A DNA stretch of 64,000 nt from Dehalococcoidia bacterium (GTDB lineage: Bacteria; Chloroflexota; Dehalococcoidia; Lucifugimonadales; UBA3495): NCBI GenBank assembly GCA_034423195.1, contig DAOUIZ010000023.1, positions 92,028 through 156,027 of the forward strand. Direction: 5' to 3'. Shown here one piece after another: positions 40,739-55,411 of this stretch (its first letter is position 1; the number at the start of each line of letters is the position of its first letter). The position numbers and the translations under genes are program-made. A model generated the notes under the pieces. That model saw nothing but the letters and a program-made list of their open reading frames with translations, was not told the DNA's origin and ran no database searches.

Positions 40739-42013
40739 ATGTTCAACCGAAAATCACCCATGTCCCTGCTTTGGGCCGCAGTCGGATTGTTCCTGTTGTC
40801 AGCAGCATGTGGCCCCTCGGATGCGGAGCTGAACCGGATGATTGAGGAACGGGCGCGTGCCATTGTGGCCAGTGCTCCGACCGTTACCCCGCAGGCCTTC
40901 CCGAGCCCGTTGCCGACCATCACCCCTCAGACTTTTCCGACGCCGCTTCCTACCTCGACTCCGCAGCTCTTTCCCACGCCGGCACCGACCTCCACCCCCG
41001 TTCCCACCGCGACTCCCCAGCCTACGGTCACGCCAGTGCCGACTCGAAGGCCGACTCCCCGACCTACGCCCCTGCCGACTCCCACACCGACCATCGCGGA
41101 CTGGAGCGAGCGCCTGGAGTCCCACGTTGTCTTGATCAATGCGTCCAACCGCTCCGGCACCGGGTTCTTCATTCAGGACCCCGAAAGCCCCTCGGATTGG
41201 TACGTGGTCACCAACGCCCACGTCGTGGGCAGACAGGAGTTCGTCGAGGTGGGCTGGTTCTCTGATATCCCGATCAAGAGAGCGAGGGTTCTTGGCATTG
41301 ATGAGTACGCCGACGTCGCTCTTCTGGACGTGGGGCCGGATGATTTTGATTGGGTTGGTACGGGGTGGGATGGGGGCCTTCAGTATATCCGGACCCATGG
41401 CAACGGGATTGGTTTATCCACCAGCTTCCACCGTGGCACTGAGGTGATGGCCGTAGGTTATCCCGATGGCGGCGGCGGTTTGACTCTGACCTCCGGGGTC
41501 GTGTCTGCTGAAAGGGTGCTGCACCAGGCGTGCAGTGAGGGTATCCATTTCATCAAGACGGACGCCTCGATAAATCCTGGAAATAGCGGCGGACCGCTGG
41601 TCGCTACGGATGGCGGCATCATAGGGATGAACACTTGCGGGAATTTCAGCTTGGAGAACGTTGGTTACGCGCTAGCCATGGAGGAGATCCTAACTAGGTT
41701 GGAAGCTCTGAAGATGGGGCTAAACCGGTTGGCGCCCACTCCTACCCCCAAGTTTCCCGAAGCTCACTACAACGATGGGTCCTTCCTGGCCTTCTTGACC
41801 TGGAACCAAAGCGGGGATTGGTTCTATCGATCTCGGAACGACAATCCCTGCGTAACCAGGGTTCAAGAGGAAGATAGTGGTTATTCGTGGTGGGATTCTC
41901 CTAGCGATGGGATCTGCCACCATGAGGGTATGTTCAGGGGCGCCGAAGTCCTGGTCGTGGTAAGGGGCAAGACCTACATCGCAGTTGAGGTTATGCTTGC
42001 GGGTCCTCCCTGA
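40739..42013 (+). CDS. trypsin-like (S1/HtrA-type) serine protease lipoprotein without PDZ domain
   Basis: Signal peptide with lipobox LSAACG and a Pro/Thr-rich repeat linker (TPQAFPSPLPT, TPQTFPTPLPT, TPQLFPTPAPT). Catalytic blocks are VVTNAHVV, DVALLDV and NPGNSGGPLV. A ~100-aa C-terminal domain is unknown. Confidence 0.8.
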   Translation: MFNRKSPMSLLWAAVGLFLLSAACGPSDAELNRMIEERARAIVASAPTVTPQAFPSPLPTITPQTFPTPLPTSTPQLFPTPAPTSTPVPTATPQPTVTPVPTRRPTPRPTPLPTPTPTIADWSERLESHVVLINASNRSGTGFFIQDPESPSDWYVVTNAHVVGRQEFVEVGWFSDIPIKRARVLGIDEYADVALLDVGPDDFDWVGTGWDGGLQYIRTHGNGIGLSTSFHRGTEVMAVGYPDGGGGLTLTSGVVSAERVLHQACSEGIHFIKTDASINPGNSGGPLVATDGGIIGMNTCGNFSLENVGYALAMEEILTRLEALKMGLNRLAPTPTPKFPEAHYNDGSFLAFLTWNQSGDWFYRSRNDNPCVTRVQEEDSGYSWWDSPSDGICHHEGMFRGAEVLVVVRGKTYIAVEVMLAGPP

Positions 42014-42451: not shown

Positions 42452-44839
42452 TTGGGCGCCAGGATTACCCGGGAAGGATCCGAGAACATCTACGCGGCGG
42501 CCCAGGGATGGGTTGACGCCGCCCTCCGCAGCGACTCCTCACTGTTCACACCTGGGCAGGCCATCTGGTCGGCCGGTTGGCTCAGGGAACTCCGAGAGCG
42601 GTTTCTGGACCGGCCGGACACATCGAAGAGGAGGTTCCTGGAGAAGCTGCGGGAGCAGCTGAATGGCAGCCCTCCCGAGATCCACCAGCTCATGGCGGAA
42701 GCCCTCTACTTCCACCGGCTCATCGTGACCACCAGGGACGGGACCGCCAAGCGGCGAGACGTCGAAACGGTGCTGGGTTGGTCTCCATCCCCGGTACCGG
42801 TCCCCGAGCACCTGGTGCGGGCCCTGACCCCCGGTATCGCCAACACCGGGCAGTATTTCCACGTGAAGCGGCCCAACCAGGTCGGGTTCCTGCTGGAGTT
42901 CGTGGAGCAGTGGAAGGAACTGGAAGCCGGTGAGCAGGACGGCCTGCTCGACGACCCCTGGGCGTTCAAGAACTTCATGCTGGCGCGGGAGTTCCGCTGC
43001 AGGACGCTGGTGGACGAACCCAACAGCTACCGGGCCCAGAGGGAAGCCCTGCTCCACCTGGTCTTCCCCGACGTCTTCGAGGGCATCGTTTCCACCAACC
43101 ACAAGCAATGGATCGCCGGGGCCTTCGCCAAGTTCATTGAAGAGCCGGCAGAGGATGTGGACCGGCTGCTGGCCCAGATCCGGCCGGAGATCGAGGCCCG
43201 GTACGGCGACATGGACTATGTGCATTACCTTCCCCAGGTGAGAAGCCTGTGGGACGCCAGATACTCGGCGGACCTCTGGAACGGGTTCATCCAGCGGGCC
43301 CAGGAGTACTGCGCCTCCGGCCGGCTGGACGAGGAGGAGATTGGTTACAAGCTGGAGATAGGCAGCAAGCTGGCGGAGGCCCGACGGGCGGTGATGGCAG
43401 AAGCCGAGGGTTGGGCTGACCTCGTGAAGAGGGGCATCGGCGGGAACCTGGTCCATCGCGTCGAGCAGGCGAAGTTTCGGGGCTGGCTTGACGAGTCCCC
43501 GGGCGAGTCCCTGTTCGCCCTGCAGATGCTTTGGGAAGGAGAGGAGGACAACCCGGGCGAGCGCATCGACGCCTTCGGCGAACTGCTTCCGTCTCAAGCC
43601 AGCAGCGGCCCCGGGACCAGGACAACCCTATCATCCGTCCTGCTGATGGGACTGGGCGTGGAGCAGTATCCCCCCTTCCGGGTGAACGTGTTCAACTCGG
43701 GGTACCGGCAGACTGGGTACGGCGAGCCGGGGGCCGGAGCCGGCGAAGCGGAGCTGTACGAGTGGTCGCTGGACTTCCTGGACCGGTTCATCGAGGAGGC
43801 CTCCAACCGGGGCCTGGAGCTGCGCCACCGGCTCGATGCCCAGTCGGTGCTGTGGGCCCTGGCCGCCGAAGGAGAAGAGCCCGGCAAGAGAAGTCCAGCC
43901 GGCGGTCAAGAGGAGGAACCCGAACCTCCGGCTGCGCCCGACCTGGACGCCCTGGCAGTGGAGACCCACCTTCCGGTGGAGTTCCTGGAGAATATCCGGC
44001 GGTTATTGGAGGACAAGAAGCAGGTCATCTTCCAGGGCCCGCCCGGCACGGGCAAAACGTTCGTCGCCCAGGCCCTGGCTGAGACCTTGGCCGGGTCGAA
44101 GGACCGGGTCACGCTGATCCAGTTCCACCCCGACTACGCCTACGAGCAGTTCATCCAGGGCTACCGTCCCCGGACGACCGACTCGGGCCAGATCACCTGG
44201 CAGGTCCAGAACGGCACCCTGCTGGATGTCGCGGAGCAGGCAGCGCAGGACCCTGGACGACACCCCCATTTCCTGGTGATCGACGAGATAAACCGGGGCA
44301 ACCTGGCCAAGGTGTTCGGGGAGCTGTACTTCCTCCTCGAGTACCGGCAGCGGACGATGCGACTGCACTATTCGAAGGAGCCCTTCTCCCTGCCCGGCAA
44401 CCTCTTCATCATCGGGACCATGAACACGGCCGACCGCTCCATCGCACTGGTGGATCTCGCCCTCCGCCGCCGCTTCCACTTCGTGGAGTTCCACCCGGAC
44501 GACCTTCCCGTCAAGGAAGTGCTGCGGAGTTATCTCACGGACAAGGCTCCGGGCATGGAGTGGGTGGCTGGTGTGGTTGACCGGGCCAACGAGTTGCTGC
44601 TGGAGGACCGGCACGCCGCCATCGGTCCCAGCTACTTCATGAAAGCGGACCTGGACGAGGAAGCCGTCCAGCGCATCTGGGACCACAACGTGCGGCCCTA
44701 TATCCAGGAGCTGCTCTTCGGCTACGGCGGCAGCCGGCTGGAGGAGTTCACCCTGGAGAACCTCCGGCGGGGGAGGACTGCCGGCGGTGCTGGGGATGAC
44801 GGTGAAGTAGTCCCTGAAAGCGGCCCACGTGAGGAGTAA
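42452..44839 (+). CDS. mcrB: McrB-like AAA+ GTPase with ~500-aa uncharacterised N-terminal region
   Basis: GPPGTGKTF Walker A, FLVIDEINRGN Walker B, IIGTMNTADRS and LRRRFHFVEF are McrB/AAA_5 hallmarks. TTG 42452 lies 6 nt after GGAGG. Confidence 0.85.
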   Translation: MGARITREGSENIYAAAQGWVDAALRSDSSLFTPGQAIWSAGWLRELRERFLDRPDTSKRRFLEKLREQLNGSPPEIHQLMAEALYFHRLIVTTRDGTAKRRDVETVLGWSPSPVPVPEHLVRALTPGIANTGQYFHVKRPNQVGFLLEFVEQWKELEAGEQDGLLDDPWAFKNFMLAREFRCRTLVDEPNSYRAQREALLHLVFPDVFEGIVSTNHKQWIAGAFAKFIEEPAEDVDRLLAQIRPEIEARYGDMDYVHYLPQVRSLWDARYSADLWNGFIQRAQEYCASGRLDEEEIGYKLEIGSKLAEARRAVMAEAEGWADLVKRGIGGNLVHRVEQAKFRGWLDESPGESLFALQMLWEGEEDNPGERIDAFGELLPSQASSGPGTRTTLSSVLLMGLGVEQYPPFRVNVFNSGYRQTGYGEPGAGAGEAELYEWSLDFLDRFIEEASNRGLELRHRLDAQSVLWALAAEGEEPGKRSPAGGQEEEPEPPAAPDLDALAVETHLPVEFLENIRRLLEDKKQVIFQGPPGTGKTFVAQALAETLAGSKDRVTLIQFHPDYAYEQFIQGYRPRTTDSGQITWQVQNGTLLDVAEQAAQDPGRHPHFLVIDEINRGNLAKVFGELYFLLEYRQRTMRLHYSKEPFSLPGNLFIIGTMNTADRSIALVDLALRRRFHFVEFHPDDLPVKEVLRSYLTDKAPGMEWVAGVVDRANELLLEDRHAAIGPSYFMKADLDEEAVQRIWDHNVRPYIQELLFGYGGSRLEEFTLENLRRGRTAGGAGDDGEVVPESGPREE

Positions 44840-44855
44840 CAAGGCCAGCCCGCCG

Positions 44856-46073
44856 ATGCGGGAGATCAACCTCAAGGAGTACAGACCCAGCGCCCCCCTG
44901 CCTCTCTCGGCGGTGGATCGGGATGCGCTACAGGCGGCGCTACCTTCGGTGACCGTCGAGCCCGTCCCGGGAACCGAGGGGACCTACCGACTGACTCCGG
45001 GCTCTTGGGTAGGAGCAGCGGAAATCGGTGGGTTGTCCGTGGTCATCGAGCCGAAGATCGGCATCGGGAACCTGCTGTCCCTGGCCTGCTACGCCGTCAG
45101 CAGGATCAGGTTCGACCAGAGGGACTTTGGCTTTCCCGAGGAGTACGCCCTGCCGGACGTCCTGGCACTGTCGCTGACCGCCCAGGCCCGCTGGGCCTTC
45201 GCCCACGGACTGCTCCATGGCTACCGGGTCGAGGAGCGGGCATTGCTCACCGTGCGGGGACGAGTCCGTCTGGAAGAGCAGATACGCCGCCGGTTCGACT
45301 TCCCCATGCCGCTGGAGATGCGGTACGACGAGTTCACCGGCGACATCCTGCCCAACCAGCTGGTCAAGGCGGCAGCCCACCGGCTGGCCCGCACCCGCCT
45401 GCGGTCCCGGGGAGCACGACGCGATCTGGGCTGGGTTGCCGGAACGCTTGCGGATGTTTCCCTCCGGGAGTTTCCCCCATCCAGGGTGCCGGAGGTGGCC
45501 TTCGACCGGCTGAACGACCACTACAGGGGAGTGGTGGCGCTGTCTAGGCTCATCCTCAGGCACGGGGCCTTCGAGGCAGGACGGGGAGCGGTCCGGGCCA
45601 GCGGCTTCCTGATGGACATGAACGCCGTCTTCCAGGAGTTCCTGACCCAGGCTCTCCGCGAGGAATTTGACGCCTCCCCGCGGACGCTGCAGTCCGACCG
45701 GGAGCTCAACAGGCTGACTCTGGACCGGGGACGCAGGGTGAGGCTGGAGCCCGACCTGACCTGGTGGGATGGCTCCACCTGTACCTTTGTGGGAGACGCC
45801 AAGTACAAGAACCTGACCGGCCGTCGCGTGCCCAACAGCGACCTCTACCAGATGCTCTCCTACGCCACCGCCCTGGACCTGCCCGGGGGCCTCCTGGTCT
45901 ATGCCCAGGGCGAGGTGGACGATGAGTCCTACGAAGTCCGCCACAGCGGCAAACGGCTGGCGGTGGCCTCCCTGGACCTTTCCGGAACCCTCGACCAGAT
46001 CCTGAAAAGGGTCCGGAGGATTGCAGGTCAGGTGGTCCTGCTTCGCGACGCAGCCCGTCGTGCTGGAACCTGA
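44856..46073 (+). CDS. mcrC: McrC-like PD-(D/E)xK endonuclease subunit
   Basis: 405 aa, immediately after mcrB. C-terminal LEPDLTWW...FVGDAKYK nuclease motif. Start set at ATG 44856 (MREINLKEY). Confidence 0.85.
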   Translation: MREINLKEYRPSAPLPLSAVDRDALQAALPSVTVEPVPGTEGTYRLTPGSWVGAAEIGGLSVVIEPKIGIGNLLSLACYAVSRIRFDQRDFGFPEEYALPDVLALSLTAQARWAFAHGLLHGYRVEERALLTVRGRVRLEEQIRRRFDFPMPLEMRYDEFTGDILPNQLVKAAAHRLARTRLRSRGARRDLGWVAGTLADVSLREFPPSRVPEVAFDRLNDHYRGVVALSRLILRHGAFEAGRGAVRASGFLMDMNAVFQEFLTQALREEFDASPRTLQSDRELNRLTLDRGRRVRLEPDLTWWDGSTCTFVGDAKYKNLTGRRVPNSDLYQMLSYATALDLPGGLLVYAQGEVDDESYEVRHSGKRLAVASLDLSGTLDQILKRVRRIAGQVVLLRDAARRAGT

Positions 46074-46288
46074 GGGAAGCTCGGGATTGAACTGCCCAGG
46101 CGTTCCGCAAACGGGGAGTATGGAACATCCCTACTTGCGGAACACTTTCCCGTTCCACAACGCGTTCCCTAACCGTGTTCTCCGGACAGCCGCGGTACTG
46201 ACGAGGTGATCCTGGGGACATCCTGGGCAGACCTATAGCCCCCGGAAAATACACATATCACCGGGAGGCTTTGGCACACGGCTCCTGA

Positions 46289-49200
46289 CTACAGCTCTGC
46301 CCGAGCCTCCCATTCATCATCGTGGTCCCGTGCGGATTTAACGCTCGATTCTATCCCTCGCAACATGCGCTTGGCCCAAGTCCGGGCAGTTCTCTTGGGA
46401 TGATCCTGCAACACGGTAAAGGGCCCCCTGAACATCTCGAAGTATGCTGTTGCACTGCCTGACCACCCGAAAGTGTTAAGGTTTGTCCCAATGGCGCGCC
46501 ACACGTCGTCTCGGTCCCCGAATTCATCAATCAGCCTCGACATCACTGGATGCAAAGTGCGTTCCGGCTGGCCGGGCACATAGCTGTCCAGGATGGGCAC
46601 AACTTCGGCTGCAAACGCTGGGGCACCGTCTGGATGAGTATGACACCAAGCAAAAAGAACGTCCTCAGGTAGGCTGAGTATCGGAGAGCTAGCCTTGCGG
46701 TCCGAAAAAGCGTCGCCCCGTAGAACGGTCCGAAACACCCACTTCTTCAGCGGCTCCGACAAAGCAGCTCGACCCCAGAGTGGCCACACGATTTCAGGAA
46801 AACCCGAAAGCAGTGCGGGCACCAGTGGAGCCAAGAGTTGCCCCTCTTCATACTCGGTTGCATTAACCAACAGATTCGCAAGCTTTAAGGCGACCGTCCT
46901 AGCATCCCCGTCATCTCTCCCTTTGGCCAGAACCCAGCCCAGTATTTCTGAAAAGTCGTGAGAAGCATCAGTCCTTCCACTATCCAACTCCCAGTCGGCC
47001 GCCTTCTCCACCGCTAGAAGAATCTGGGGCCTGAGACCTTCCAGCAATTTCCGATCTCTGAAGGTGTACATCTGCATTAGGTCCAAGGCCACTCGATACG
47101 CTTCAGCGCTATGCGAGAACATCGCATCGAAGAGCGGCGCGACAGTCACTGCCGGAAGCTTTGCGAGTTCTCCCCCCAGAGCCCAGCATTGAAGATGCCC
47201 GGCCGATAACCGCCCTTCCTCAAGGGCCTCTACAGCGACAGAGATGTCAGATCCCCTTATTCCCATGCGAAGGCATAAAAACGGAAATGCAGGAGTAAAC
47301 TCCGGACTCCCCGCAATCAGCTGCTTTAACTGCACCTCATGCTGAGGGTGGTCCGCAGCAAGGCGAGAAACAAGCCCTGAAAGAAGCCCCAAATCGCGGT
47401 ACTGCTCCGGAACATCCAGTGCCGCTCTAATTATGGGCTTCAACCAATCCAGAGGAGACTGTGAGAACTCCGCGATGGCCGATCCAAAATCGAAAGTCCG
47501 GCGTTGCGGGCTCCTGCCGTAATGACTCCGTGGTGGCACACGGCTGAGCAGATCAAGATGACTTTCCAGTTCTTCTGAATCTTGCACAAGATCCCTGGCC
47601 AATTCCCTGATTGCATCGCTCTGCATCTCCTGGCGGGCCTCGTAGTCCAAATTCTCGTCGTCCGGATAGTCCCACGACATCTCCGTCACCACGAGGCGGA
47701 TGCGAGACTCAACATCTTTGGGTTGCAGGCCCATGATAAGTTCCCTGATGCGGTTCACTTCCCCGGAATCAATCCGCCCTGCGTCGTATCGCAGCACATC
47801 TCCCAAACCTTCCAAGGCCTCTGGCCAATGCAGCATCGCGGAGCCCACGTCCTTTACCGCCGTCTCAACCGTGTCGATGAATCCGTCCCGTACCAGGGAG
47901 CGTAGCTGGCGCCCCAAGTTGCTGCGCGCCTTGTTTCCCAACTCATCCTCCCTCTTAGCAAAATCCGACAGCCGGGATGCACATCCCTCGATGTAGTTCT
48001 TCGCATCTAGGCCACTGGAAGGACGCCAGGATTCTAGATTGGGCCTAGAACCATGGGCCCCTGCACTGCCCAGCCGGAAATAATGATTTGTCAGGCATCC
48101 TCTGGACAGCGCTTCCGCGACTAGGTCCAACTGCTTGGGATCGTCAGTCGCAGAAACATCGTCCAAAAATCTCAACCTCAACTCAGCGCCAGCTGCAGTT
48201 CCGGCCAGAAAAAGAGGGAAGAGTCCTTTGAACTGTTCGGTAGCGTTGTTCCCCCATCTCTCGTTCTCCGCTATGGCGAGTCGAAGCAGAAGCCCAGCCC
48301 CTTCCTCAAAAGTGTCTTCCCTGAAGGCGATCTTCTCCAACGAAACGACCAGATTCCGGCGCAAACCGCCCCCAACTTTTTCGAGATGTCCTGCCTCATC
48401 AAAGAATCTCTCAATCACCCGGTAAACAACCACCGGGTCTACTTCAGCCAAGGATGAAATAACACGGGAGTTCCCTGACTCGAGAACCCCTTTCAAACCC
48501 CAGAATGGACCACCCTCCCGGCAAACATGCTCCACCACCCGTACAGCATGTTCCGTGGTATTAAGCAATGCCAACTGCCGCGAGGCCAGGTCTTTGAGTG
48601 TAGGACTGGCACCTCCTCCCAGTACCTGGTCCCATTTGTCAGGTGACCAATGGCGCCACTGCCTCCCTGCAAGATTCAACGAGATCGGCCGTGGTTGCAT
48701 GACAGCGAACCCCCCGCGTCGTTGAAGTGCTCCCCTCTCCAGCAGTTCTTGGACATCTGAATACAGTTCATCGAGAGAGACTCGGCCATCGATTTCCGCC
48801 AACTCTCCGAGTTGAACCGCTTGCCCATATTCATCTCCGATGATCTGGAGTGGACTGGGTTCGACCTGAACCAACCCGTTGCTCGCCACCAAGGCGGCGG
48901 TCCTGAGTAAACCGGCGGCATTTCGCGGGTTTCTGCCTAGGACAAAGGCGTTGACGAGATCGTCATCACTGGCTTGCGCCACCGGAAGCCGGTTTCGCCA
49001 GGCTATGGAAATTCGGAGGGCCATTCCCGGGAAGCCCTTGGAAAAGCGTTCCAGCCGACTCCGATCCTCCGGACCGAGACTCAATTGCTGTTCGATGATC
49101 CCTTGGGTTACATCTTGGGGGGCCTCCACTACCAGATAGGTGTCGTCGTCGAGCTGACCCTGAGGAATCTCATAGTCGATGGTCAAGAGCGAAGAACGAC

Positions 49201-50356
49201 TGCCGGCTCGGGCGACTATACCAGCGAGTTTCCTATGCGTATCAGGAGGACAGTCATCCACCACAACCACCACTCCCGCCCCCATATCGGCAAACCGCTG
49301 AGTAGCTTCAATGATTCTCTCCGCTGGTGTCTCCGACTCGGCGGCGTAGAGAACAATCTCGCGCATACTGGACTCATCCAATGCACTGTCTTCATTCGAT
49401 CCCAGCGCCTCAAGGGCAAGTCGAGTCTTGCCAACTCCCGACAGTCCCACGACTCTGGAAGCTGTACGCGGCGAGCTCAGTCTGTCCCGCAGCCAACTGC
49501 GTAAACCGGCAAGTCTCTCGTCGTCGACCCATCCGTGGAGATCGTGTTCGGAGCGTCCCGACCAGTGGTCCCAAGAACGAAACGGTTCAGCTCCTGCAGA
49601 CTGGGTCCTTTCCCTAACCCACGCAACCACAGACGGATGGAGGTTCGTCCAAGAGGCAACTTGATCCGCATCCCAGAAACTGACCCGTTCATCTTCGACG
49701 GCAAGTTCTGCCTTCCCGAGCGAGGCCAGAATTGCCTCCTTCCTTCGTTGGATTGCCTTCTGGGTGAATGAGGCAGTACAAATCAGAATGTAATGACCTC
49801 CTGCCGCTAGTGCTCCATGCACCATCTCCTTGACCCCGCCGTCGGTTGTGATAACGTCCTGCGCTGCACCGGAGGGAGATACGGGGCCGCTCTTTAACTG
49901 GAATTGGCAAAAGCGCGACGGGAGCATTGGAGTGCGCTCCGGCCCACCGGCCCACCGAATGCGTCCGTCCTCGCCTCCGTCGGGTGTATGGATGTTCCCT
50001 GCCACCTGAATGCCATCGACGGGCAAGCCATGAGTCCGCGCCTCGGCCAGCAATAGCCTTCGCAGCAGATTCGCCAGTTGGTGTGCATCCAGCACTGAGA
50101 TCTGTTGTCCGCTCACCTCCAAGGGGCCTGCACCGGGTGCTCTGGAGGGTTTATTCCTTGGATCGCCTCCCAAGACCGATATCATGCTGGGATCGGCCTC
50201 CAACAGCCGCAGGAGGCGAACAGTAGATGCGGATGGTTTCACCGTCCCCGCCTCATACTTGGTGAAAGCCCTGGGTCCTCCACCAAGAAGTTCGCCTGCC
50301 TCCACTTGGGTAAGTCCTAAAGAAACTCGAACATCCTTGATCTCTTCCGGCGTCAT
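46289..50356 (-). CDS. HTH (MqsA/XRE-like) + Mrr-cat-like nuclease + STAND P-loop NTPase + ~900-aa helical-repeat protein (Avs-like)
   Basis: aa 1-62: LGLTQVEAGELLGGGPRAFTKYEAG...LLRLLEADP. aa ~120-205: DGGEDGRI...CQFQLK...YILICTASFT. aa 303-311: GLSGVGKT. aa 361-368: VVVVVDDC. The remainder is alpha-helical repeat-like. Visibly lower GC than its neighbours. Confidence 0.75.
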   Translation of the reverse strand: MTPEEIKDVRVSLGLTQVEAGELLGGGPRAFTKYEAGTVKPSASTVRLLRLLEADPSMISVLGGDPRNKPSRAPGAGPLEVSGQQISVLDAHQLANLLRRLLLAEARTHGLPVDGIQVAGNIHTPDGGEDGRIRWAGGPERTPMLPSRFCQFQLKSGPVSPSGAAQDVITTDGGVKEMVHGALAAGGHYILICTASFTQKAIQRRKEAILASLGKAELAVEDERVSFWDADQVASWTNLHPSVVAWVRERTQSAGAEPFRSWDHWSGRSEHDLHGWVDDERLAGLRSWLRDRLSSPRTASRVVGLSGVGKTRLALEALGSNEDSALDESSMREIVLYAAESETPAERIIEATQRFADMGAGVVVVVDDCPPDTHRKLAGIVARAGSRSSLLTIDYEIPQGQLDDDTYLVVEAPQDVTQGIIEQQLSLGPEDRSRLERFSKGFPGMALRISIAWRNRLPVAQASDDDLVNAFVLGRNPRNAAGLLRTAALVASNGLVQVEPSPLQIIGDEYGQAVQLGELAEIDGRVSLDELYSDVQELLERGALQRRGGFAVMQPRPISLNLAGRQWRHWSPDKWDQVLGGGASPTLKDLASRQLALLNTTEHAVRVVEHVCREGGPFWGLKGVLESGNSRVISSLAEVDPVVVYRVIERFFDEAGHLEKVGGGLRRNLVVSLEKIAFREDTFEEGAGLLLRLAIAENERWGNNATEQFKGLFPLFLAGTAAGAELRLRFLDDVSATDDPKQLDLVAEALSRGCLTNHYFRLGSAGAHGSRPNLESWRPSSGLDAKNYIEGCASRLSDFAKREDELGNKARSNLGRQLRSLVRDGFIDTVETAVKDVGSAMLHWPEALEGLGDVLRYDAGRIDSGEVNRIRELIMGLQPKDVESRIRLVVTEMSWDYPDDENLDYEARQEMQSDAIRELARDLVQDSEELESHLDLLSRVPPRSHYGRSPQRRTFDFGSAIAEFSQSPLDWLKPIIRAALDVPEQYRDLGLLSGLVSRLAADHPQHEVQLKQLIAGSPEFTPAFPFLCLRMGIRGSDISVAVEALEEGRLSAGHLQCWALGGELAKLPAVTVAPLFDAMFSHSAEAYRVALDLMQMYTFRDRKLLEGLRPQILLAVEKAADWELDSGRTDASHDFSEILGWVLAKGRDDGDARTVALKLANLLVNATEYEEGQLLAPLVPALLSGFPEIVWPLWGRAALSEPLKKWVFRTVLRGDAFSDRKASSPILSLPEDVLFAWCHTHPDGAPAFAAEVVPILDSYVPGQPERTLHPVMSRLIDEFGDRDDVWRAIGTNLNTFGWSGSATAYFEMFRGPFTVLQDHPKRTARTWAKRMLRGIESSVKSARDHDDEWEARAEL

Positions 50357-50382
50357 CTAAACTCAACCTCGATGATAATAGT

Positions 50383-50434
50383 GACCAAAATGGTTTATAA
50401 CTACATTATAGACCATAATGGTCATCATTATCAA
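50383..50434 (-). promoter_or_regulatory. consensus-like promoter with two GACCA-N3-TGGTC operators upstream of the STAND gene
   Basis: On the minus strand: TTGATA (50429..50434), an 18-nt spacer, then TATAAT (50405..50410). Palindrome GACCATAATGGTC (50411..50423) fills the spacer. The related GACCAAAATGGTT (50383..50395) lies just downstream of the -10 element. Confidence 0.6.
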
Positions 50435-50484
50435 GACCTATTCGGGTCGATTCCGGTAGAGGGTAGAATCGTACGCTAGGGCCG

Positions 50485-50940
50485 TCATCGGCGTTTTGGC
50501 CACCGGTATTCGCCGGTGAGCAGGATGTGGGTCCACCCAAGGGGTGAGATGTTGGCCAGGAGCTCGGGCTCAACGGTCAGGCCGGCGTGTTTCCGCTGTC
50601 CGACCGCTTCGCCGAGATGGGCGGTATTCCAATAAATGAACGATGACGGCGAGGAGGTTGAGCCCAGCCATGCGGTAGTGCTGGCCCTCGCTGGAGCGGT
50701 CGCGGATTTCGCCTTGGCGCCCGATCCGGAGCGCGTTCTTGAGCTCGTGATGAGCCTCGCCCTTGTTCATCCCGGCCGACGCGGCGCTGCCCGTAAGGGG
50801 ATCGTCCAGAGGACGGCGCAGCCCGTCGTCCCGAGCTCCGCGGGACCCGAGCCAGCAACGTCTTATATGAATGGTACGGAAACAATTGCCGATGCGGGAC
50901 CCTATTCGTACACTTCCCCCATGACCGCAACACCCATGAC
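50485..50940 (-). pseudogene. tnpA: Tn3-family transposase C-terminal fragment (frameshifted)
   Basis: MNKGEAHHELKNALRIGRQGEIRDRSSEGQHYRMAGLNLLAVIV, then after a frameshift IYWNTAHLGEAV...ISPLGWTHILLTGEYRWPKRR and a stop. These are the conserved C-terminal blocks of Tn3 TnpA. Confidence 0.75.
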
Positions 50941-50944
50941 GGCA

Positions 50945-51302
50945 ATCCTCATCGGATGCCCGCGCCATCGCCGACCTGCTTCGGGAACGCGGCGTGAAAC
51001 TGGTCCTCGGACGGGCCCTCTACGACCCGGACGATCCCATGGGAAAGATGCTCTTCAATATCCTCGCCACCTTCGCCGAGTTCGAGGCTGATCTCATCCG
51101 CATGCGCACCCGCGAGGGCATGGCCACCGCCCGCGATAAGGGGAAATTGCGCGGCAAGCAGCCCAAACTGTCCGACCGACAGCAGCGGGAACTCCGCCGT
51201 ATGCACGCCACCGGCGAGTATTCCATCAGTGATCTCGCCGAACTCTTCTCCGTCTCAAGACCAACCGTCTATCGCACACTCAACCGGTGTCTTTCCCCTT
51301 AG
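50945..51302 (+). pseudogene. tnpR: resolvase (serine recombinase) fragment lacking the catalytic N-terminus
   Basis: ...IADLLRERGVKLVLGRALYDPDDPMGKMLFNILATFAEFEADLIRMRTREGMATARDKGKLRGKQPKLSDRQQRELRRMHATGEYSISDLAELFSVSRPTVYRTL. The catalytic Ser region is absent. The stop codon lies inside the right IR. Confidence 0.75.
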
Positions 51303-51335
51303 CGTACGATTCTGCCACTTACCGGAATCGCCCCG

Positions 51336-51905
51336 AGGTAGAGGACCACGCCCTCCCCCTCCTGGTCCCCCTTGGACTCCGGGATCCGGATGCGGCCGCT
51401 GCCGTCCCCCCAGCGCAGGGCGACGTCCACCAAGCCACAGCGGCGGGCGTGCTCCGCCGTCTCGGTGTGACCGCTCCTGGTCCGGCGGTGGGTGAAAGCG
51501 GTGGCGCGGATGGCCGCCAGGGCCTCGGCGTGGAGGGGAGCCGCCTACCTCTGGGGTCCCCGGAGGAGCCGGCCCAGCCCCCGCACCGTCTCCGCGACGT
51601 CGGAGCTATCGGGACGGGGCCAACCCGTCAGCTCCGCCCCCCTGACGATGGCCACCGTCCGGCAGGGCCTCTTCCAGGTCCTCGGGGAGGCTGAGCTCCT
51701 GCTCCTGGGCCCAGGCCTGGAACCGGTTCCAGTGGCTGCGGCAGGCCATGTTGGTGGCGTCAGGCCGGGCCAGTTGGCGGACTGCGGTCGGTAATCCGGG
51801 GTGAGAGGTATGACGTGGCCGAAGGTGGCCTGCGAGAGCAAGGGGATACCTCCACAACCGCCTGATAACGGTAATTGTCAGACGTTTGAGCTGGGCCCGC
51901 AACCG
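51336..51905 (-). pseudogene. decayed tyrosine recombinase, paralogue of the gene at 63475..64000, truncated by the Tn3 remnant
   Basis: Shares a perfect 40-bp block (51371..51410 = 63841..63880) and flanking ~80 percent similar DNA with the intact gene. It encodes ...WGDGSGRIRIPESKGDQEGEGVVLY up to the Tn3 IR. An N-terminal-like CRSHWNRFQAWAQEQELSLPE segment lies in another frame. Confidence 0.65.
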
Positions 51906-51910
51906 GCAAC

Positions 51911-54900
51911 TTATCCAGGTTCAGCGGCCATCTCCACCAGCCTCGCCACGGCGTTGGCGAGACGCATCTGGCGGGGAGTGCGGCAGCGCACCCTCAGCAC
52001 CCCGGGGCTGGCCACCACCACCGCCAGGCAGCGGGCCCGGCTGGTGGCGACGTTCAGCCGGTTCAGGCTGTAGAGGAACTCCATCCCGTGGGGAGCCTCC
52101 TCCGAGGAACTAGTCGCCATCGAGTAGATGGAGATGGGGGCCTCCTGCCCCTGGAACTTGTCCACGGTCCCTATTCGGAACCCGGGGAGCGCTTCCGTGA
52201 TTGCCCGCACCTGGGCGTTGTAGGGGGTTATGACCAGGACGTCGGATTCGGTGATCTCATGGACAGCGCCGTCGGCGTCGGTGTAGGTCGGGGCTGAACC
52301 GAGGAGACCCTGGACGATCCGGGCCACCCGGTCGGCTTCCTCAACAGACTCGCTGGACTGCCCGGTGTGGGCCACGGGAAGGAACCTGATCCCGGTCCCC
52401 GATAGCGGGGACACGCCGGCGAGGTCGATCAGTTCCCTTCCCTCATGGGAATGGAGCCTGCCCTCGTAGAAGACCTCGGACGTGTAGGCGGTGATCTCCG
52501 GGTGCAGTCTCCAGCTCCCATCGAGGAAGAGGCCCAACCCGCCGGGCATCACCCGTTCGCCATCCAGGAGATGGGCCAGGACCGAGCGCTCCGCCCCCGG
52601 GGGATGGGTGCCCTGGAGCGGCTGGTCCAGCTGCTGGGGATCGCCCAGCAGGACCAGGCTGGCGGCGCAAGGCGAAGCCGCCACCGCGTCGGCGAGGGAC
52701 ATCTGGCCCGCCTCATCGATGAACAGGACATCTACGGTACCGGTCATCTCCTCCCGGGCCCAGAGCCAGGTGGTTCCGCCGACCACGTCGACCGTACCAC
52801 CTTCCAGAGCGCCCAGCGCGGCGGGGTTGTCCTTGAGGAGGATGGCATCCCCAAAGGTGGGCTCGCCGGTTGCCCGCTGGCCTATCCTAACCTGGATCCC
52901 ACGTTTCTCCGCCTCCTCGGCGGTCTTGGCCAGCATCTCCCCGATGACCTTGTGGCTGTTGGCCGTCACGCCGACCCTCTTACCCCCTTCCACCAGGTCA
53001 ACTATCATCTCGGCGCCCACGGTGCTCTTGCCCGAGCCCGGCGGCCCCTGGATGGCCAGGTAGCTCTCATCGAGGGACGAGGCAATCCGGCGTGCGGCGG
53101 CCTCCGTCGTCTCCCCCTGCGCCCGGAGGACCTGATCTTCAGAACCAGCGAACCTGGGCGCCCGCCGGGCAAGCAGGTCGCGGGCGGCGCGAAACTCGCC
53201 GTGGTCTTCCATGCCGTGGCCCAGCACCCACCGGGCCAGGCGCTGCAGGCTTTCCGGCTTGGGCCCAGGACCGAAGAAGTCGAACGGGATCAGGGATGTG
53301 GCGGTGGGATCGGGACGGCCGTTACCCAGCCTGATGTCGATGACACCCCGGTCGTCGTCCAGGAAGAAGATCGTCCCAACCGAACGCCGCGTGTCGGGAT
53401 CGTGGGGCTGGCTGTCGACCCTGATCGCGTGTTCCTGGGGCGGGAAACGGAACCGATGGATGGTAGAGCGGGCCCGGGGAGCCGGGTCGGGCCAGGACTC
53501 CTGGTAGGTCAGCATGGCCAGCGCGTCCGACTCCTCGAAGCGCTCCTCGTCGGTCAGTTCGTTGGCAAGGTAGAAGTAACGCCACCAGAAGGACTTCGCC
53601 TCCCGCCGGTGCCAGTTGAGCAGCTGCGCCAGCAGCCACTGACCCCGCTCGACGTCGTTCATCTCCTCGAGGGACTCGGGCAGAGGGAAGACCAGGGCGT
53701 CGGCTAGGGCGTTCACCGCCTGCTGGGCCTCCGAGTCCTCAGTCTCCTCGGGCTGGGGGACGGAGGGCCTGGGAAGCTCTGAGCCGAGGTCATCTTCCAG
53801 CATGTTCCGCTGCCCTTCCAGCCAGTCCCGCAGGCGCATGGTGGAAACGCAGTCGTCCCGGTTGTACTCCTCGATCTCCTCCAGCAGCTCCTCCCGACCC
53901 TCGTCCTGTCCCAGCTCCAGCCAGGTCTCGAACTCCACGATGCTGCTGCCGGCATCCCGCAGGTCCACCTCCCGGGCATAACCGTAGAGGGGCTCCAGCC
54001 GCTTGATGGAGTAGCTCTCCACCGACGCCCGCACCCCCTGGCGCACCGCCCGGTGCAGGTCCACGAAGACCCTTCCCCGCAGCAGGTGGTCAACCTCCTC
54101 CTCCCGGGTGCCGTGGCGTCCCGCCAGCCGCTTGACGGCGGTGGGCTCGTAGGGAGCGTAGTGGTAGATGTGGAGGTTGGGGTCGGCGGCGAGGCGTTCC
54201 ATGACCAGGTCGATGAACCCCTCGAAGGCCCTCCGCTCCCCGCCGGTGGTGACGGTCCCGCCGTCGATGGCCCAGAAGGGGTGGAAGGCGGGATCTCCCG
54301 GCTCATCGGAGCGCCCGGGCTCGATGACGCCGAACAGGTACTCGATCCCGTCCACCTCGTCGGAGCTGAAGAAAGGGTCTCCCTCGATGTCGAAGAACAG
54401 GTCGCCCTCCGAGGGTTCGGGCAGCATCAGCAGGCCGTGATTGGGGACCAGCTCTCCGTCCCGGCCCCGGGGAGGATCGAGGCGTTCCGAGATGACCTCG
54501 CCGACCCGCTCGCCCTCCACCTGGATCCGGGCTTGGGCATGAATCCTCTCCAGCGCCTCCCTCCGGATGCTATTGGGATGCTCCCCCAGGGTCTCGAGAG
54601 GTTCGGCCAGGGTCGACCTGGTGGTGACTCCGACGCCGTGAAGGGCGTACCGCTGCCGGGAGCTGAGGTTGGCGACCAGGGCCAGGTCATCCCTTGCCCG
54701 CCACCAGGCGCTGCATTCCCCGCTCCAGCGGCACACGGCGCAGTGCTCCACCGGTTCCGGTGCGGTGGTCACCGGATAATCCGGCGTCCCGTCCAGCGTG
54801 GCCTCGAACTCCCGGGCCACCAGCCGGTGGTAGGCGGCGTAGTCGGCGAAGCGGAAGGAGACCGTCTCCCTCTGGACTCCCCCCAGGGCGAGGTGCATCT

Positions 54901-55411
54901 CGTCGGGCGGCCGGCCCTGGGCTTCGCCCAGCAGCTCCGAGTACATGCAGAGCTGGAGGACGGCCGAGGCCTTGGCATGGCGGGCCAGCTTGGTGTCCCA
55001 GACCTCGTAGCTCCAGTCTCCGAGGCCGCTGGGCTGGGGAACCCGCCGGAGGAAATCGGCGAATCCCAGCCGCCGCCCATCGAAGAGCACCGCCTGGTAG
55101 ATGACATTGACCCCGCTGCGCATCGCCTGGAGGGTGAGGTCCCTCCCCTCGACTAGGCGCTGGACAAAGGGCAACCCGGTAGCTGGTTCGAGGCGGACCA
55201 CCTCGACCCCGTCGGCCTCCAGGGACTCCAGGAAGCGCTCCTCGTGGAGCTGGCCGCGCTGGGTGATCCGGTCCAGCACCGGGTCTTCGCGCACCGGCCT
55301 CTCCAGGTGTCCCGAGACCGCGGCCCGCTCCAGGCTGGTCAGGTGACCGCATTCCAGGAATCCCACCAGGTCCGTTGCCGAGTAGACCAGGTTCCCACCG
55401 ATAAGTTGCAT
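51911..55411 (-). CDS. Cas4/Dna2-like Fe-S PD-(D/E)xK nuclease + DnaQ/RNase H-like exonuclease + SF1 (Upf1/Dna2-type) helicase fusion
   Basis: 1166 aa. Cys21 plus C224-x2-C-x5-C233; GFADFL...YEVWDTK nuclease motifs; FFDIEGDPF and HIYHYAPYE exonuclease-like blocks. From aa ~786: GPPGSGKST, LFIDEAGQ, LLGDPQQL, VDKFQGQE and LNVATSRAR helicase motifs. Confidence 0.8.
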   Translation of the reverse strand: MQLIGGNLVYSATDLVGFLECGHLTSLERAAVSGHLERPVREDPVLDRITQRGQLHEERFLESLEADGVEVVRLEPATGLPFVQRLVEGRDLTLQAMRSGVNVIYQAVLFDGRRLGFADFLRRVPQPSGLGDWSYEVWDTKLARHAKASAVLQLCMYSELLGEAQGRPPDEMHLALGGVQRETVSFRFADYAAYHRLVAREFEATLDGTPDYPVTTAPEPVEHCAVCRWSGECSAWWRARDDLALVANLSSRQRYALHGVGVTTRSTLAEPLETLGEHPNSIRREALERIHAQARIQVEGERVGEVISERLDPPRGRDGELVPNHGLLMLPEPSEGDLFFDIEGDPFFSSDEVDGIEYLFGVIEPGRSDEPGDPAFHPFWAIDGGTVTTGGERRAFEGFIDLVMERLAADPNLHIYHYAPYEPTAVKRLAGRHGTREEEVDHLLRGRVFVDLHRAVRQGVRASVESYSIKRLEPLYGYAREVDLRDAGSSIVEFETWLELGQDEGREELLEEIEEYNRDDCVSTMRLRDWLEGQRNMLEDDLGSELPRPSVPQPEETEDSEAQQAVNALADALVFPLPESLEEMNDVERGQWLLAQLLNWHRREAKSFWWRYFYLANELTDEERFEESDALAMLTYQESWPDPAPRARSTIHRFRFPPQEHAIRVDSQPHDPDTRRSVGTIFFLDDDRGVIDIRLGNGRPDPTATSLIPFDFFGPGPKPESLQRLARWVLGHGMEDHGEFRAARDLLARRAPRFAGSEDQVLRAQGETTEAAARRIASSLDESYLAIQGPPGSGKSTVGAEMIVDLVEGGKRVGVTANSHKVIGEMLAKTAEEAEKRGIQVRIGQRATGEPTFGDAILLKDNPAALGALEGGTVDVVGGTTWLWAREEMTGTVDVLFIDEAGQMSLADAVAASPCAASLVLLGDPQQLDQPLQGTHPPGAERSVLAHLLDGERVMPGGLGLFLDGSWRLHPEITAYTSEVFYEGRLHSHEGRELIDLAGVSPLSGTGIRFLPVAHTGQSSESVEEADRVARIVQGLLGSAPTYTDADGAVHEITESDVLVITPYNAQVRAITEALPGFRIGTVDKFQGQEAPISIYSMATSSSEEAPHGMEFLYSLNRLNVATSRARCLAVVVASPGVLRVRCRTPRQMRLANAVARLVEMAAEPG

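What the first reader, a model, noticed from the sequence alone, without database searches (positions are those of the whole stretch)
46289..50356. 1355-aa single-gene HTH + Mrr-like nuclease + STAND NTPase + giant helical-repeat sensor (Avs-like with a DNA-binding head)
The domain order read from the sequence has four parts. First, an MqsA/XRE-type HTH (aa 1-62). Second, a Mrr-cat-type PD-(D/E)xK domain (DGGEDGRI, QFQLK, YILICTASFT; aa ~120-205). Third, a P-loop NTPase with GLSGVGKT and VVVVVDDC. Fourth, ~900 aa of repeat-like helices. Nuclease-STAND-repeat proteins are the architecture of antiviral Avs/AVAST sensors. An extra N-terminal HTH fused in the same polypeptide, together with matching operators in its own promoter, is not part of the described Avs types as far as I know. 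It suggests self-repression coupled to activation. The gene is visibly lower in GC than its surroundings, suggesting recent acquisition.
Basis: partly seen in the sequence, partly recalled or inferred. Interest (0 to 1): 0.7.

Follow-up and report, generated by a model that had tools for sequence, protein, structure and literature searches.

The report
Self-repressing Avs8 phage sensor with HTH head
This gene encodes a member of the known Avs8 (PD-lambda-4) family of anti-phage sensor nucleases that also carries a small DNA-binding head, and conserved binding sites in its own promoter suggest the head keeps the gene's expression in check.

Summary
The ORF at 46289-50356 (-), 1355 aa, is real. 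It matches the PADLOC PD-Lambda-4_A profile end to end (E 1.4e-78, aa 80-1354). PD-lambda-4 is now called Avs8, a STAND sensor with an Mrr-type nuclease that binds HK97-fold major capsid protein and then degrades DNA.

The extra N-terminal 62 aa are homologous to the HTH domain of the antitoxin MqsA (PDB 3fmy, E 1e-10). They lie outside the Avs8 profile, and no paper I could read mentions them.

The fusion is not unique. Of 116 full-length 50%-identity representatives, 49 carry the head, and carriers span many phyla.

The window has an 11/12 sigma-70 promoter. A perfect palindrome ACCATTATGGT sits between -35 and -10, and a second copy lies 28 nt downstream. The same motif (up to 1 mismatch) occurs upstream of 51 of 71 HTH-bearing relatives, against 0.35% of control windows and 0 of 7 HTH-less relatives. 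Paired sites are usually 29 nt apart. This strongly suggests autorepression.

No partner gene is conserved. The gene has low GC, and a 92%-identical copy sits in a different defence island.

Verdict: a new variant of a known kind. The ligand, the nuclease activity and the repression are all inferred.

The parts
46289..50356 (-). Complete ORF of 1355 aa plus stop: an HTH-headed Avs8 (PD-lambda-4_A) family protein
   Evidence: PADLOC PDLC03991 E 1.4e-78, aa 80-1354 against profile positions 5-1283 of 1283; 808 homologues
50171..50356 (-). aa 1-62: MqsA-type (XRE-class) helix-turn-helix head
   Evidence: Pfam PF15731 E 8.6e-13; PDB MqsA 3fmy/3gn5 E 1e-10. GGGPRAFxKYE is almost invariant. R29 and K33 occupy the positions of MqsA N97 and R101.
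50126..50170 (-). aa 63-77: flexible linker between head and nuclease
   Evidence: AF2 pLDDT below 50 for residues 63-76; variable in the alignment
49571..50125 (-). aa 78-262: PD-(D/E)xK nuclease domain with Mrr-like motifs (E105; D126-GGED130-G; Q153-x-K155; ILICTASFT)
   Evidence: Invariant residues. AF2 pLDDT 85 with an alpha-beta-beta-beta-alpha-beta core. Best fold hit is EcoO109I, E 0.015. Motif blocks parallel E. coli Mrr GDGGIDG / VQAK / FITTSGFT.
48437..49519 (-). aa 280-640: STAND NTPase module. Walker A GLSGVGKT is aa 304-311 (nt 49424-49447). Walker B VVVVVDD is aa 362-368 (nt 49253-49273).
   Evidence: conservation; Foldseek hits to SAMD9, EcAvs4 8dgf, Apaf-1, CED-4 and NRC
46292..48436 (-). 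aa 641-1355: C-terminal sensor region, homologous to the Avs8 sensor
   Evidence: Collinear with the PD-Lambda-4_A profile to position 1283 of 1283 and with HTH-less P0174 to its residue 1250. Not modelled here.
50405..50434 (-). Sigma-70-type promoter: -35 TTGATA (50434-50429), 18-nt spacer, -10 TATAAT (50410-50405)
   Evidence: 11 of 12 matches; the only such site in 46000-50700
50412..50422 (.). Operator O1, the perfect palindrome ACCATTATGGT, inside the promoter spacer
   Evidence: family-wide conservation
50384..50394 (.). Operator O2, ACCATTTTGGT, 28 nt downstream of O1 and just after the -10
   Evidence: paired sites 29 nt apart in 19 of 30 spacings
50362..50370 (-). Ribosome-binding-site-like GAGGTTGAG upstream of the ATG
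   Evidence: read directly from the sequence

Best explanation
This is a stand-alone, single-gene anti-phage system of the Avs8 (PD-lambda-4) family with a built-in transcriptional autorepressor.

**Body (aa 78-1355).** It should work like characterised Avs8A. The C-terminal helical sensor binds a newly made phage protein, which for E. coli Avs8A is the monomeric HK97-fold major capsid protein. The STAND NTPase then drives ATP-dependent oligomerisation. The N-terminal Mrr-like PD-(D/E)xK nuclease then degrades DNA and aborts the infection.

**Head (aa 1-62).** This MqsA-type HTH is tethered by a flexible linker. It most likely binds, as a dimer per site, the two palindromic operators ACCAT-N-ATGGT. 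One sits in the spacer of the gene's near-consensus sigma-70 promoter and the other just downstream of the -10. The level of this potentially toxic nuclease would therefore limit its own transcription. Promoter, operators, repressor, sensor and effector would travel as one portable cassette.

**What is shown.** Family membership, domain order, conserved catalytic and P-loop residues, the promoter, and the operator conservation and its link to HTH presence.

**What is inferred.** DNA binding by the head, repression, the ligand, nuclease activity and phage defence.
For: **Family**
- The PADLOC PD-Lambda-4_A match is full length. Its score of 263 bits falls within the range of HTH-less members, 217-397 bits.
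- The protein aligns collinearly, at 31% identity, with HTH-less P0174 over aa 77-1350.
- Avs8 biology comes from 10.1101/2025.07.02.662641 and PMC13581612.

**Fold and catalytic residues**
- STAND fold.
- Invariant E105, D126, D130, Q153, K155 and Walker A/B residues.

**Head**
- Homology to MqsA.
- MqsA represses its own operon through ACCT-N3-AGGT palindromes, two of them in E. coli (PMC5422877).

**Promoter and operators**
- Window promoter and sites.
- ACCATNATGGT with up to 1 mismatch lies within 130 nt upstream of 51 of 71 HTH-bearing loci. It occurs in 28 of 8048 control windows and in 0 of 7 HTH-less loci.
- Three further loci (L020, L029, L072) carry sites upstream of an inserted small gene; in L020 and L072 they form a pair 29 nt apart.
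- Upstream DNA is conserved only at the two palindromes.
- A bona fide MqsR/MqsA-like pair in Azospirillum has the same operator pair.

**Single gene and mobile**
- No neighbour is conserved across 80 loci.
- A 92%-identical cassette sits in another defence island.
- The window context is a defence island with McrBC and a helicase.
Against: **No experiment**
- Binding of the head to the palindromes is inferred only from co-occurrence and from the MqsA precedent.

**Operators not universal**
- About 15 of 71 HTH-bearing loci show no clear operator.

**Motif not specific**
- NtrC sites at glnA promoters match the same paired pattern.

**Distance from characterised Avs8A**
- The body is only about 30% identical to HTH-less members.
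- It scores far from the E. coli-derived profile optimum, so the ligand may not be the major capsid protein.

**Weak nuclease assignment**
- It is not significant at profile level.
- It is only marginal at fold level for the isolated domain.

**Sensor not examined**
- The sensor was not modelled and no complex prediction was possible.
Confidence: 0.72

Rival explanations
1. The HTH head is mainly a structural or tethering module rather than a repressor. It would dimerise, as the MqsA HTH domain does. That could hold resting protomers as inactive dimers parked on DNA, or deliver the nuclease to DNA once activated. Any effect on transcription would be incidental.
For: The head sits on a flexible linker next to the nuclease. 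Active Avs assemblies are tetramers, and two dimer-binding operators would hold four protomers (literature, plus inference). About 15 of 71 HTH-bearing loci lack a recognisable operator.
Against: The sites lie exactly in the promoter spacer and just after the -10, at a conserved distance from the start codon. This is classic repressor geometry. A generic tether would not need two sequence-specific sites in the gene's own promoter. Only one perfect site exists in the whole 64-kb window.
Confidence: 0.13
2. The protein is a fused toxin-antitoxin-like design. The MqsA-derived head would act as a cis-antitoxin that masks the nuclease until it is displaced or degraded during infection. The promoter palindromes would be a leftover of its TA ancestry.
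For: The head is homologous to a type II antitoxin. An MqsRA-like operon carries the same operator pair. In three loci a PemK/MazF-like gene is inserted between the operators and the gene.
Against: In MqsA the toxin-binding part is the N-terminal zinc domain, which is absent here: only profile positions 65-123 of 127 match. HTH-less Avs8A proteins are already held inactive by the STAND module and are functional alone. The palindromes are under selection across phyla and are not decaying.
Confidence: 0.05
3. It is a STAND-class transcription regulator like MalT, AfsR or GutR. Its output would be gene regulation through the HTH, and the nuclease-like domain would be inactive.
For: HTH plus STAND is the architecture of known regulators (cited in PMC13581612). 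Pfam does not recognise a nuclease domain.
Against: The full-length match is to an experimentally validated defence nuclease family. The PD-(D/E)xK residues are invariant. The context is a defence island. The only perfect operator in the 64-kb window lies in the gene's own promoter.
Confidence: 0.03

Closest known systems
Avs8 / PD-lambda-4 (E. coli ECOR07 Avs8A, WP_000963924.1; Vassallo 2022; bioRxiv 10.1101/2025.07.02.662641; Nature 2026 PMC13581612)
   Same: The window protein has the same Mrr-type nuclease, STAND NTPase and large helical sensor, and it matches the profile over its full length. Avs8A works alone in E. coli, and here too no partner gene is present.
   Different: The window protein has an extra 62-aa MqsA-type HTH plus a linker at the N-terminus, and cognate operators in its promoter. 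It has no Avs8B-like neighbour. It is only about 30% identical to HTH-less members. It is spread over many phyla, whereas one survey lists the PD-Lambda-4 system only in Proteobacteria.
MqsA antitoxin (E. coli YgiT; PDB 3fmy, 3gn5, 3o9x)
   Same: The HTH domains are homologous (E 1e-10). Both have a palindromic operator with ACC...GGT arms around a 3-nt centre, present as a pair in the gene's own promoter (compared).
   Different: The window protein has no zinc-ribbon toxin-binding domain and no MqsR partner. Its half-site is ACCA(T) rather than ACCT. Positions N97 and R101 of MqsA are R29 and K33 here. The head is fused to a 1290-aa immune sensor.
EcAvs4 (PDB 8dgf): Mrr-like nuclease, STAND, TPR portal sensor
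   Same: The domain logic is the same, and the structures match over 558 aligned columns (E 9e-6).
   Different: There is no detectable sequence similarity. No PADLOC Avs1-5 profile hits the window protein. The sensor family differs, and EcAvs4 has no HTH.
STAND transcription factors MalT, AfsR and GutR
   Same: Both combine a DNA-binding HTH with a STAND NTPase in one polypeptide.
   Different: In those proteins DNA binding is the output. Here a nuclease effector is present, and the HTH appears to serve only autoregulation.
Separately encoded or fused autorepressors of defence and counter-defence genes (CapW/BrxR, Aca proteins, AcrIIA1). These are recalled from my own knowledge; Aca2 appeared.
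   Same: The logic is the same: an HTH keeps a costly immunity or anti-immunity gene repressed from its own promoter.
   Different: Those are unrelated HTH families, usually separate genes, and are not fused to a STAND sensor.

Membership tests
Avs8 / PD-lambda-4_A | Full-length match to the family profile | tested here: met
   PADLOC PDLC03991, E 1.4e-78, 262.8 bits, aa 80-1354 against profile positions 5-1283 of 1283. The score lies within the range of HTH-less members, 217-397 bits.
Avs8 / PD-lambda-4_A | N-terminal Mrr-type PD-(D/E)xK nuclease with catalytic residues | tested here: inconclusive
   The motif blocks E105, DGGED130G, Q153-x-K155 and ILICTASFT are invariant and parallel E. coli Mrr. 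The secondary-structure core is as expected. Against this, there is no Pfam Mrr_cat hit, hhalign gives E 0.083, and the best fold hit is EcoO109I at E 0.015.
Avs8 / PD-lambda-4_A | Central STAND NTPase with Walker A and B | tested here: met
   GLSGVGKT and VVVVVDD are conserved. Foldseek hits SAMD9, EcAvs4, Apaf-1, CED-4 and NRC.
Avs8 / PD-lambda-4_A | C-terminal sensor homologous to the Avs8 sensor | tested here: met
   Profile coverage runs to position 1283. The BLASTP alignment with HTH-less P0174 is collinear to its residue 1250.
Avs8 / PD-lambda-4_A | Activation by HK97-fold major capsid protein, ATP-dependent DNase, phage defence | not testable with these tools
   This is known only for E. 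coli Avs8A.
PD-lambda-4 two-gene system (A plus B) | Adjacent Avs8B / PD-Lambda-4_B gene | tested here: not met
   No PADLOC B hit among the neighbours. No neighbour is conserved across 80 loci. Avs8B is dispensable in E. coli.
Avs1-Avs5 (AVAST types in PADLOC) | Match to any Avs1-5 profile | tested here: not met
   At E up to 1, only PD-Lambda-4_A and weak RmrA (HTH) hits are returned.
MqsA antitoxin family | C-terminal XRE-type HTH homologous to MqsA | tested here: met
   PF15731 E 8.6e-13; PDB 3fmy E 1e-10
MqsA antitoxin family | N-terminal CxxC zinc-ribbon toxin-binding domain and an adjacent MqsR toxin | tested here: not met
   Only TIGR03830 positions 65-123 of 127 match, and the score of 59.1 is below the cutoff of 61.8. 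No toxin neighbour is present.
MqsA-type autoregulation | Palindromic operators in the gene's own promoter | tested here: met
   Window sites. Family-wide enrichment of 51 of 71 loci against 0.35% of controls, with 29-nt pairing. Binding itself was not tested.

The most novel reading that the evidence does not exclude
The immune receptor is also its own transcription factor, and its activation state is wired to its promoter. When the sensor binds its phage ligand and the protein oligomerises, the HTH heads would be pulled off, or locked onto, the two operators. Infection would then directly switch synthesis of the receptor, giving feed-forward amplification or shut-off. The operator-bound resting dimers might also be the physiological inactive state. 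That would make it a bacterial NLR-like protein coupling pattern recognition to transcription within one polypeptide.
Probability: 0.2. Interest if true: 0.7.

Novelty: new variant of a known kind. Interest (0 to 1): 0.47.

Why it matters
**Regulation of Avs sensors.** Avs/STAND sensors are toxic nucleases, and how their expression is controlled is little studied. Here a large, cross-phylum branch of Avs8 carries its own repressor domain and a conserved operator pair. This gives a directly testable example of built-in dosage control in a bacterial NLR-like receptor.

**Portability.** The arrangement would also explain how a single gene can move between very different hosts and defence islands and still be tolerated.

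**Annotation.** Practically, the finding defines an unannotated subfamily. Records label these proteins 'hypothetical protein', and two-gene PD-lambda-4 rules would miss them.

**Evolution.** It also shows co-option of a toxin-antitoxin regulator module, the MqsA HTH together with its operators, by an immune sensor.

Tried and rejected
- **Pfam Mrr_cat.** I scanned the whole protein and 28 nuclease-domain sequences. None hit.
- **Profile-profile comparison with E. coli Mrr.** Only the DGGxDG block aligned, and not significantly.
- **Foldseek of the isolated nuclease domain.** Only a marginal restriction-enzyme hit came back; the rest was noise such as EF-Tu.
- **PDB sequence searches.** A single sequence and a profile found only the MqsA and HigA HTH domains, and no Avs structure.
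- **Partner genes.** I looked for an Avs8B-like or any conserved partner gene and found none.
- **Stand-alone HTH genes.** I looked for MqsA-like genes next to HTH-less relatives and found none.
- **E. coli Avs8A sequence.** I tried to obtain it for a direct comparison.
- **HTH in Avs8 papers.** I looked in the Avs8 papers and their held supplements and found nothing.
- **Genome-wide scan for the exact paired-operator pattern.** Of 26 loci, 6 were HTH-Avs8 and 1 was an MqsRA-like module. The rest were unrelated, including NtrC sites at glnA and SatD-like genes (by my own reading of the ORFs). The motif alone is therefore not diagnostic.
- **Covariation between recognition residues and operators.** This was only anecdotal. 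L061 and L062 have changed residues and changed palindromes, and L069 has a divergent HTH and no site.
- **A passenger of the neighbouring Tn3-type element.** I rejected this because the gene lies outside that element's terminal repeat.

Full report

Yes. The ORF listing gives one ORF, 46289..50356 on the minus strand. It starts at ATG and encodes 1355 aa. A stop codon sits immediately upstream of the ATG, and a GAGG lies 10 nt before it.

GC falls to 0.54-0.59 between about 46000 and 50500. The flanks are 0.64-0.70.

**2. What is the body?**

- PADLOC places aa 80-1354 on the PD-Lambda-4_A profile over positions 5-1283 of 1283 (E 1.4e-78, 263 bits). No Avs1-5 profile matches.
- PD-lambda-4 was found by Vassallo et al. 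2022 and has since been renamed Avs8 (bioRxiv 10.1101/2025.07.02.662641; Nature 2026, PMC13581612).
- Avs8A is a STAND NTPase with an Mrr-family nuclease. It binds monomeric HK97-fold major capsid proteins with nanomolar affinity and then degrades dsDNA in an ATP- and Mg-dependent way.
- Its operon partner Avs8B is dispensable.
- HTH-less family representatives score 217-397 bits on the same profile. The window protein is therefore as good a member as they are.
- It aligns collinearly with one of them, P0174, from aa 77 to 1350 at 31% identity.

An AlphaFold2 model of aa 1-640 (mean pLDDT 77) finds SAMD9, EcAvs4 (8dgf), Apaf-1, CED-4 and plant NRC proteins. This confirms a STAND fold.

The nuclease domain, modelled alone (pLDDT 85), has the alpha-beta-beta-beta-alpha-beta core expected of PD-(D/E)xK enzymes. 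E105 lies on the first helix, D126 and D130 lie before the second strand, and Q153-x-K155 lies on the third strand. All are invariant, including in HTH-less relatives. These blocks parallel E. coli Mrr (GDGGIDG, VQAK, FITTSGFT).

Statistical support for 'Mrr_cat' is weak:
- Pfam gives no hit in 28 members.
- hhalign against Mrr gives E 0.083 over 13 columns.
- The best fold hit is EcoO109I at E 0.015.

I therefore call the domain a PD-(D/E)xK nuclease with Mrr-like motifs. I could not model the sensor (aa 641-1355).

**3. What is the head?**

Residues 2-59 match Pfam MqsA_antitoxin (E 8.6e-13) and the solved C-terminal HTH domain of E. coli MqsA (E 1e-10). Only the HTH half of the MqsA family model is matched, positions 65-123 of 127. 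The zinc-ribbon toxin-binding domain is therefore absent.

Residues 63-76 have pLDDT below 50, so they form a flexible tether. The head lies outside the PADLOC profile. The main texts of both Avs8 papers contain no mention of an HTH. Supplements were searchable only for the bioRxiv version of the Nature paper, and they held nothing.

**4. Is the fusion unusual?**

It is not rare.
- Nearly all of the 120 best homologues are 1340-1360 aa long and carry PF15731.
- An exhaustive search with aa 78-700 found 2527 representatives at E up to 1e-3, and 732 at E up to 1e-30.
- Among the top 150, 116 are full length. Of these, 49 have the head (median 1347 aa) and 67 lack it (median 1262 aa).
- On a neighbour-joining tree of the bodies, only 4 changes of state are needed. 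Presence of the head is therefore lineage-coherent.
- Genomic relatives come from Chloroflexota, Alpha- and Gammaproteobacteria, Acidobacteriota, Gemmatimonadota, Bacteroidota and Nitrospinota. Cultured carriers include Legionella feeleii, Bradyrhizobium ivorense and Methylocystis.
- No neighbouring gene is conserved: at most 9 of 80 loci share any family. This is a single-gene system.

**5. The promoter and operators**

The only sigma-70-like site in 46000-50700 is -35 TTGATA (50434-50429), an 18-nt spacer and -10 TATAAT (50410-50405), with 11 of 12 matches. The perfect palindrome ACCATTATGGT (50412-50422) lies inside the spacer. ACCATTTTGGT (50384-50394) lies just after the -10.

I took the 130 nt upstream of 71 HTH-bearing loci and searched for ACCATNATGGT:

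| Mismatches allowed | HTH-bearing loci | Control windows | HTH-less loci |
|---|---|---|---|
| 0 | 27 of 71 | 2 of 8048 | 0 of 7 |
| up to 1 | 51 of 71 | 28 of 8048 | 0 of 7 |

Further points:
- With up to 2 mismatches allowed, 29 loci carry two sites. The spacing is 29 nt in 19 of 30 cases.
- Three apparent exceptions (L020, L029, L072) have perfect sites 240-470 nt upstream, and in L020 and L072 they form a pair 29 nt apart. In L020 and L072 a small PemK/MazF-like ORF is inserted between the sites and the gene.
- When the promoters are anchored on the first site, only the two palindromes are conserved. The rest of the upstream DNA is not. This argues for selection rather than shared descent.
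- The recognition region GGGPRAFxKYE is almost invariant.

MqsA itself represses its operon through ACCT-N3-AGGT palindromes, two of them in E. coli, using Asn97 and Arg101 (PMC5422877). By the alignment, these positions correspond to the invariant R29 and K33 here.

A genome-wide scan for the exact paired pattern found a bona fide MqsR/MqsA-like operon in Azospirillum with the same operator pair. The head and its operators were therefore probably co-opted together from such a module. The same scan also hit unrelated sites, for example upstream of glnA. These are probably NtrC sites. The motif alone is not diagnostic.

**6. Mechanism**

The best-supported reading has three steps.
- The head binds the two operators, as dimers, and represses the gene's own strong promoter. 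This holds the sensor-nuclease at a low, self-limiting level.
- On infection the sensor binds a conserved phage protein. By family precedent this is the HK97-fold capsid monomer.
- The STAND module then oligomerises with ATP, and the nuclease degrades DNA.

The anatomy, family membership and operator statistics are shown. Binding, repression, the ligand and the defence phenotype are inferred. Whether activation feeds back on transcription is open.

Rivals are a tethering or dimerisation role for the head, a cis-antitoxin role, and a pure transcription-factor role. Each is less consistent with the repressor-type placement of the sites, the missing toxin-binding domain, and the invariant nuclease residues.

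**7. Context and mobility**

- The gene lies between McrBC (42452-46073) and a Tn3-type remnant. A large SF1 helicase and an HSDR_N protein lie beyond. This is a defence island.
- The identical gene with the same McrC neighbour is on a Logan contig.
- A 92%-identical copy lies in a different island, with a resolvase, a type I R-M system and TA genes.
- DNA homology between the two is limited to window 50398..46102.
- Together with the GC drop, this supports horizontal movement of the gene with its regulatory region.

**8. Novelty and score**

The family and its mechanism are known. HTH domains have been listed generically among STAND and NACHT architectures.

What appears undescribed is the MqsA-HTH-headed Avs8 branch, its abundance, and its conserved promoter-embedded operator pair. 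I could not see the Nature paper's supplementary tables, so prior listing of the architecture cannot be excluded.

I rate this a new variant of a known kind, with moderate interest of 0.47.

Noticed in passing
window 50444-51336: This is a Tn3-family miniature remnant of about 893 bp. It has 38-bp terminal inverted repeats at 50444-50481 and 51297-51336 (32 of 38 identical, ending ...TCGTACGCTA(A/G)GG). Between them lie frameshifted C-terminal transposase fragments: 50570-50968 hits PF01526, and the stop is at 50485-50487. Its outer end lies about 10 bp from the -35 of the avs8 promoter.
   Followed up: partly
window 42452-46073 (+): A McrB-like AAA_5 GTPase (795-aa ORF) and McrC (PF10117, E 1e-49) converge on the 3' end of the avs8 gene. 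This is a type IV restriction system.
   Followed up: no
window 51911-55411 (-) and 55608-56624 (+): An 1166-aa protein combines an RNase_H_2-like domain with SF1 helicase domains (AAA_11/AAA_12) and hits PADLOC Mokosh MkoA/MkoC profiles in its C-terminal part. Next to it is a 338-aa protein with an HSDR_N domain. These are probably further defence genes.
   Followed up: no
window 40739-42013 (+): A 424-aa trypsin-like peptidase (PF13365) weakly resembles the protease part of PADLOC RT-Protease_XI.
   Followed up: no
L020 5144-5905, L072 5217-5917, L029 (Pseudomonadales MAGs): In L020 and L072 an AbrB/MazE-like ORF lies just upstream of the operator pair. A 111-113-aa PemK/MazF-like ORF lies between the operators and the HTH-Avs8 gene. 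The toxin-like gene and avs8 therefore appear to share the operator-controlled promoter. L029 has one perfect site 237 nt upstream; its ORFs were not inspected.
   Followed up: partly
L028 5980-6177 and 6217-10266 (Nitrospinaceae MAG): A stand-alone 65-aa diverged MqsA-like HTH ORF sits between the operator pair and an HTH-Avs8 gene that keeps its own fused head. The head is therefore duplicated.
   Followed up: partly
L043 about 5900-6010 (Latescibacterota MAG): This relative keeps the first residues of the head (TPDRIRAIREG) and then jumps straight to the linker. It looks like an internal deletion of the HTH, and no operator is found upstream.
   Followed up: no
L089 1165-1972 (Azospirillum rugosum): An MqsR-like toxin (101 aa) and a full MqsA-like antitoxin (148 aa) lie behind ACCATAATGGT and ACCATATTGGT, whose start positions are 30 nt apart. 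This is the same operator design as the Avs8 head and a likely evolutionary source of it.
   Followed up: partly
L084, L090, L091, L094, L103: The paired pattern also occurs upstream of glutamine synthetase genes, as GCACCATAATGGTGC. These are probably NtrC sites, which shows that the motif alone is not specific.
   Followed up: no
L061, L062 (Caldilineaceae) and L069 (Verrucomicrobiae): The recognition segment of the heads is altered in L061 (GGGPKAF) and L062 (GGGRDAF). L061 has different upstream palindromes (GCCATAATGAC, GTCATAGTGAC). In L069 the HTH is divergent and has no site. These are hints of co-variation.
   Followed up: no
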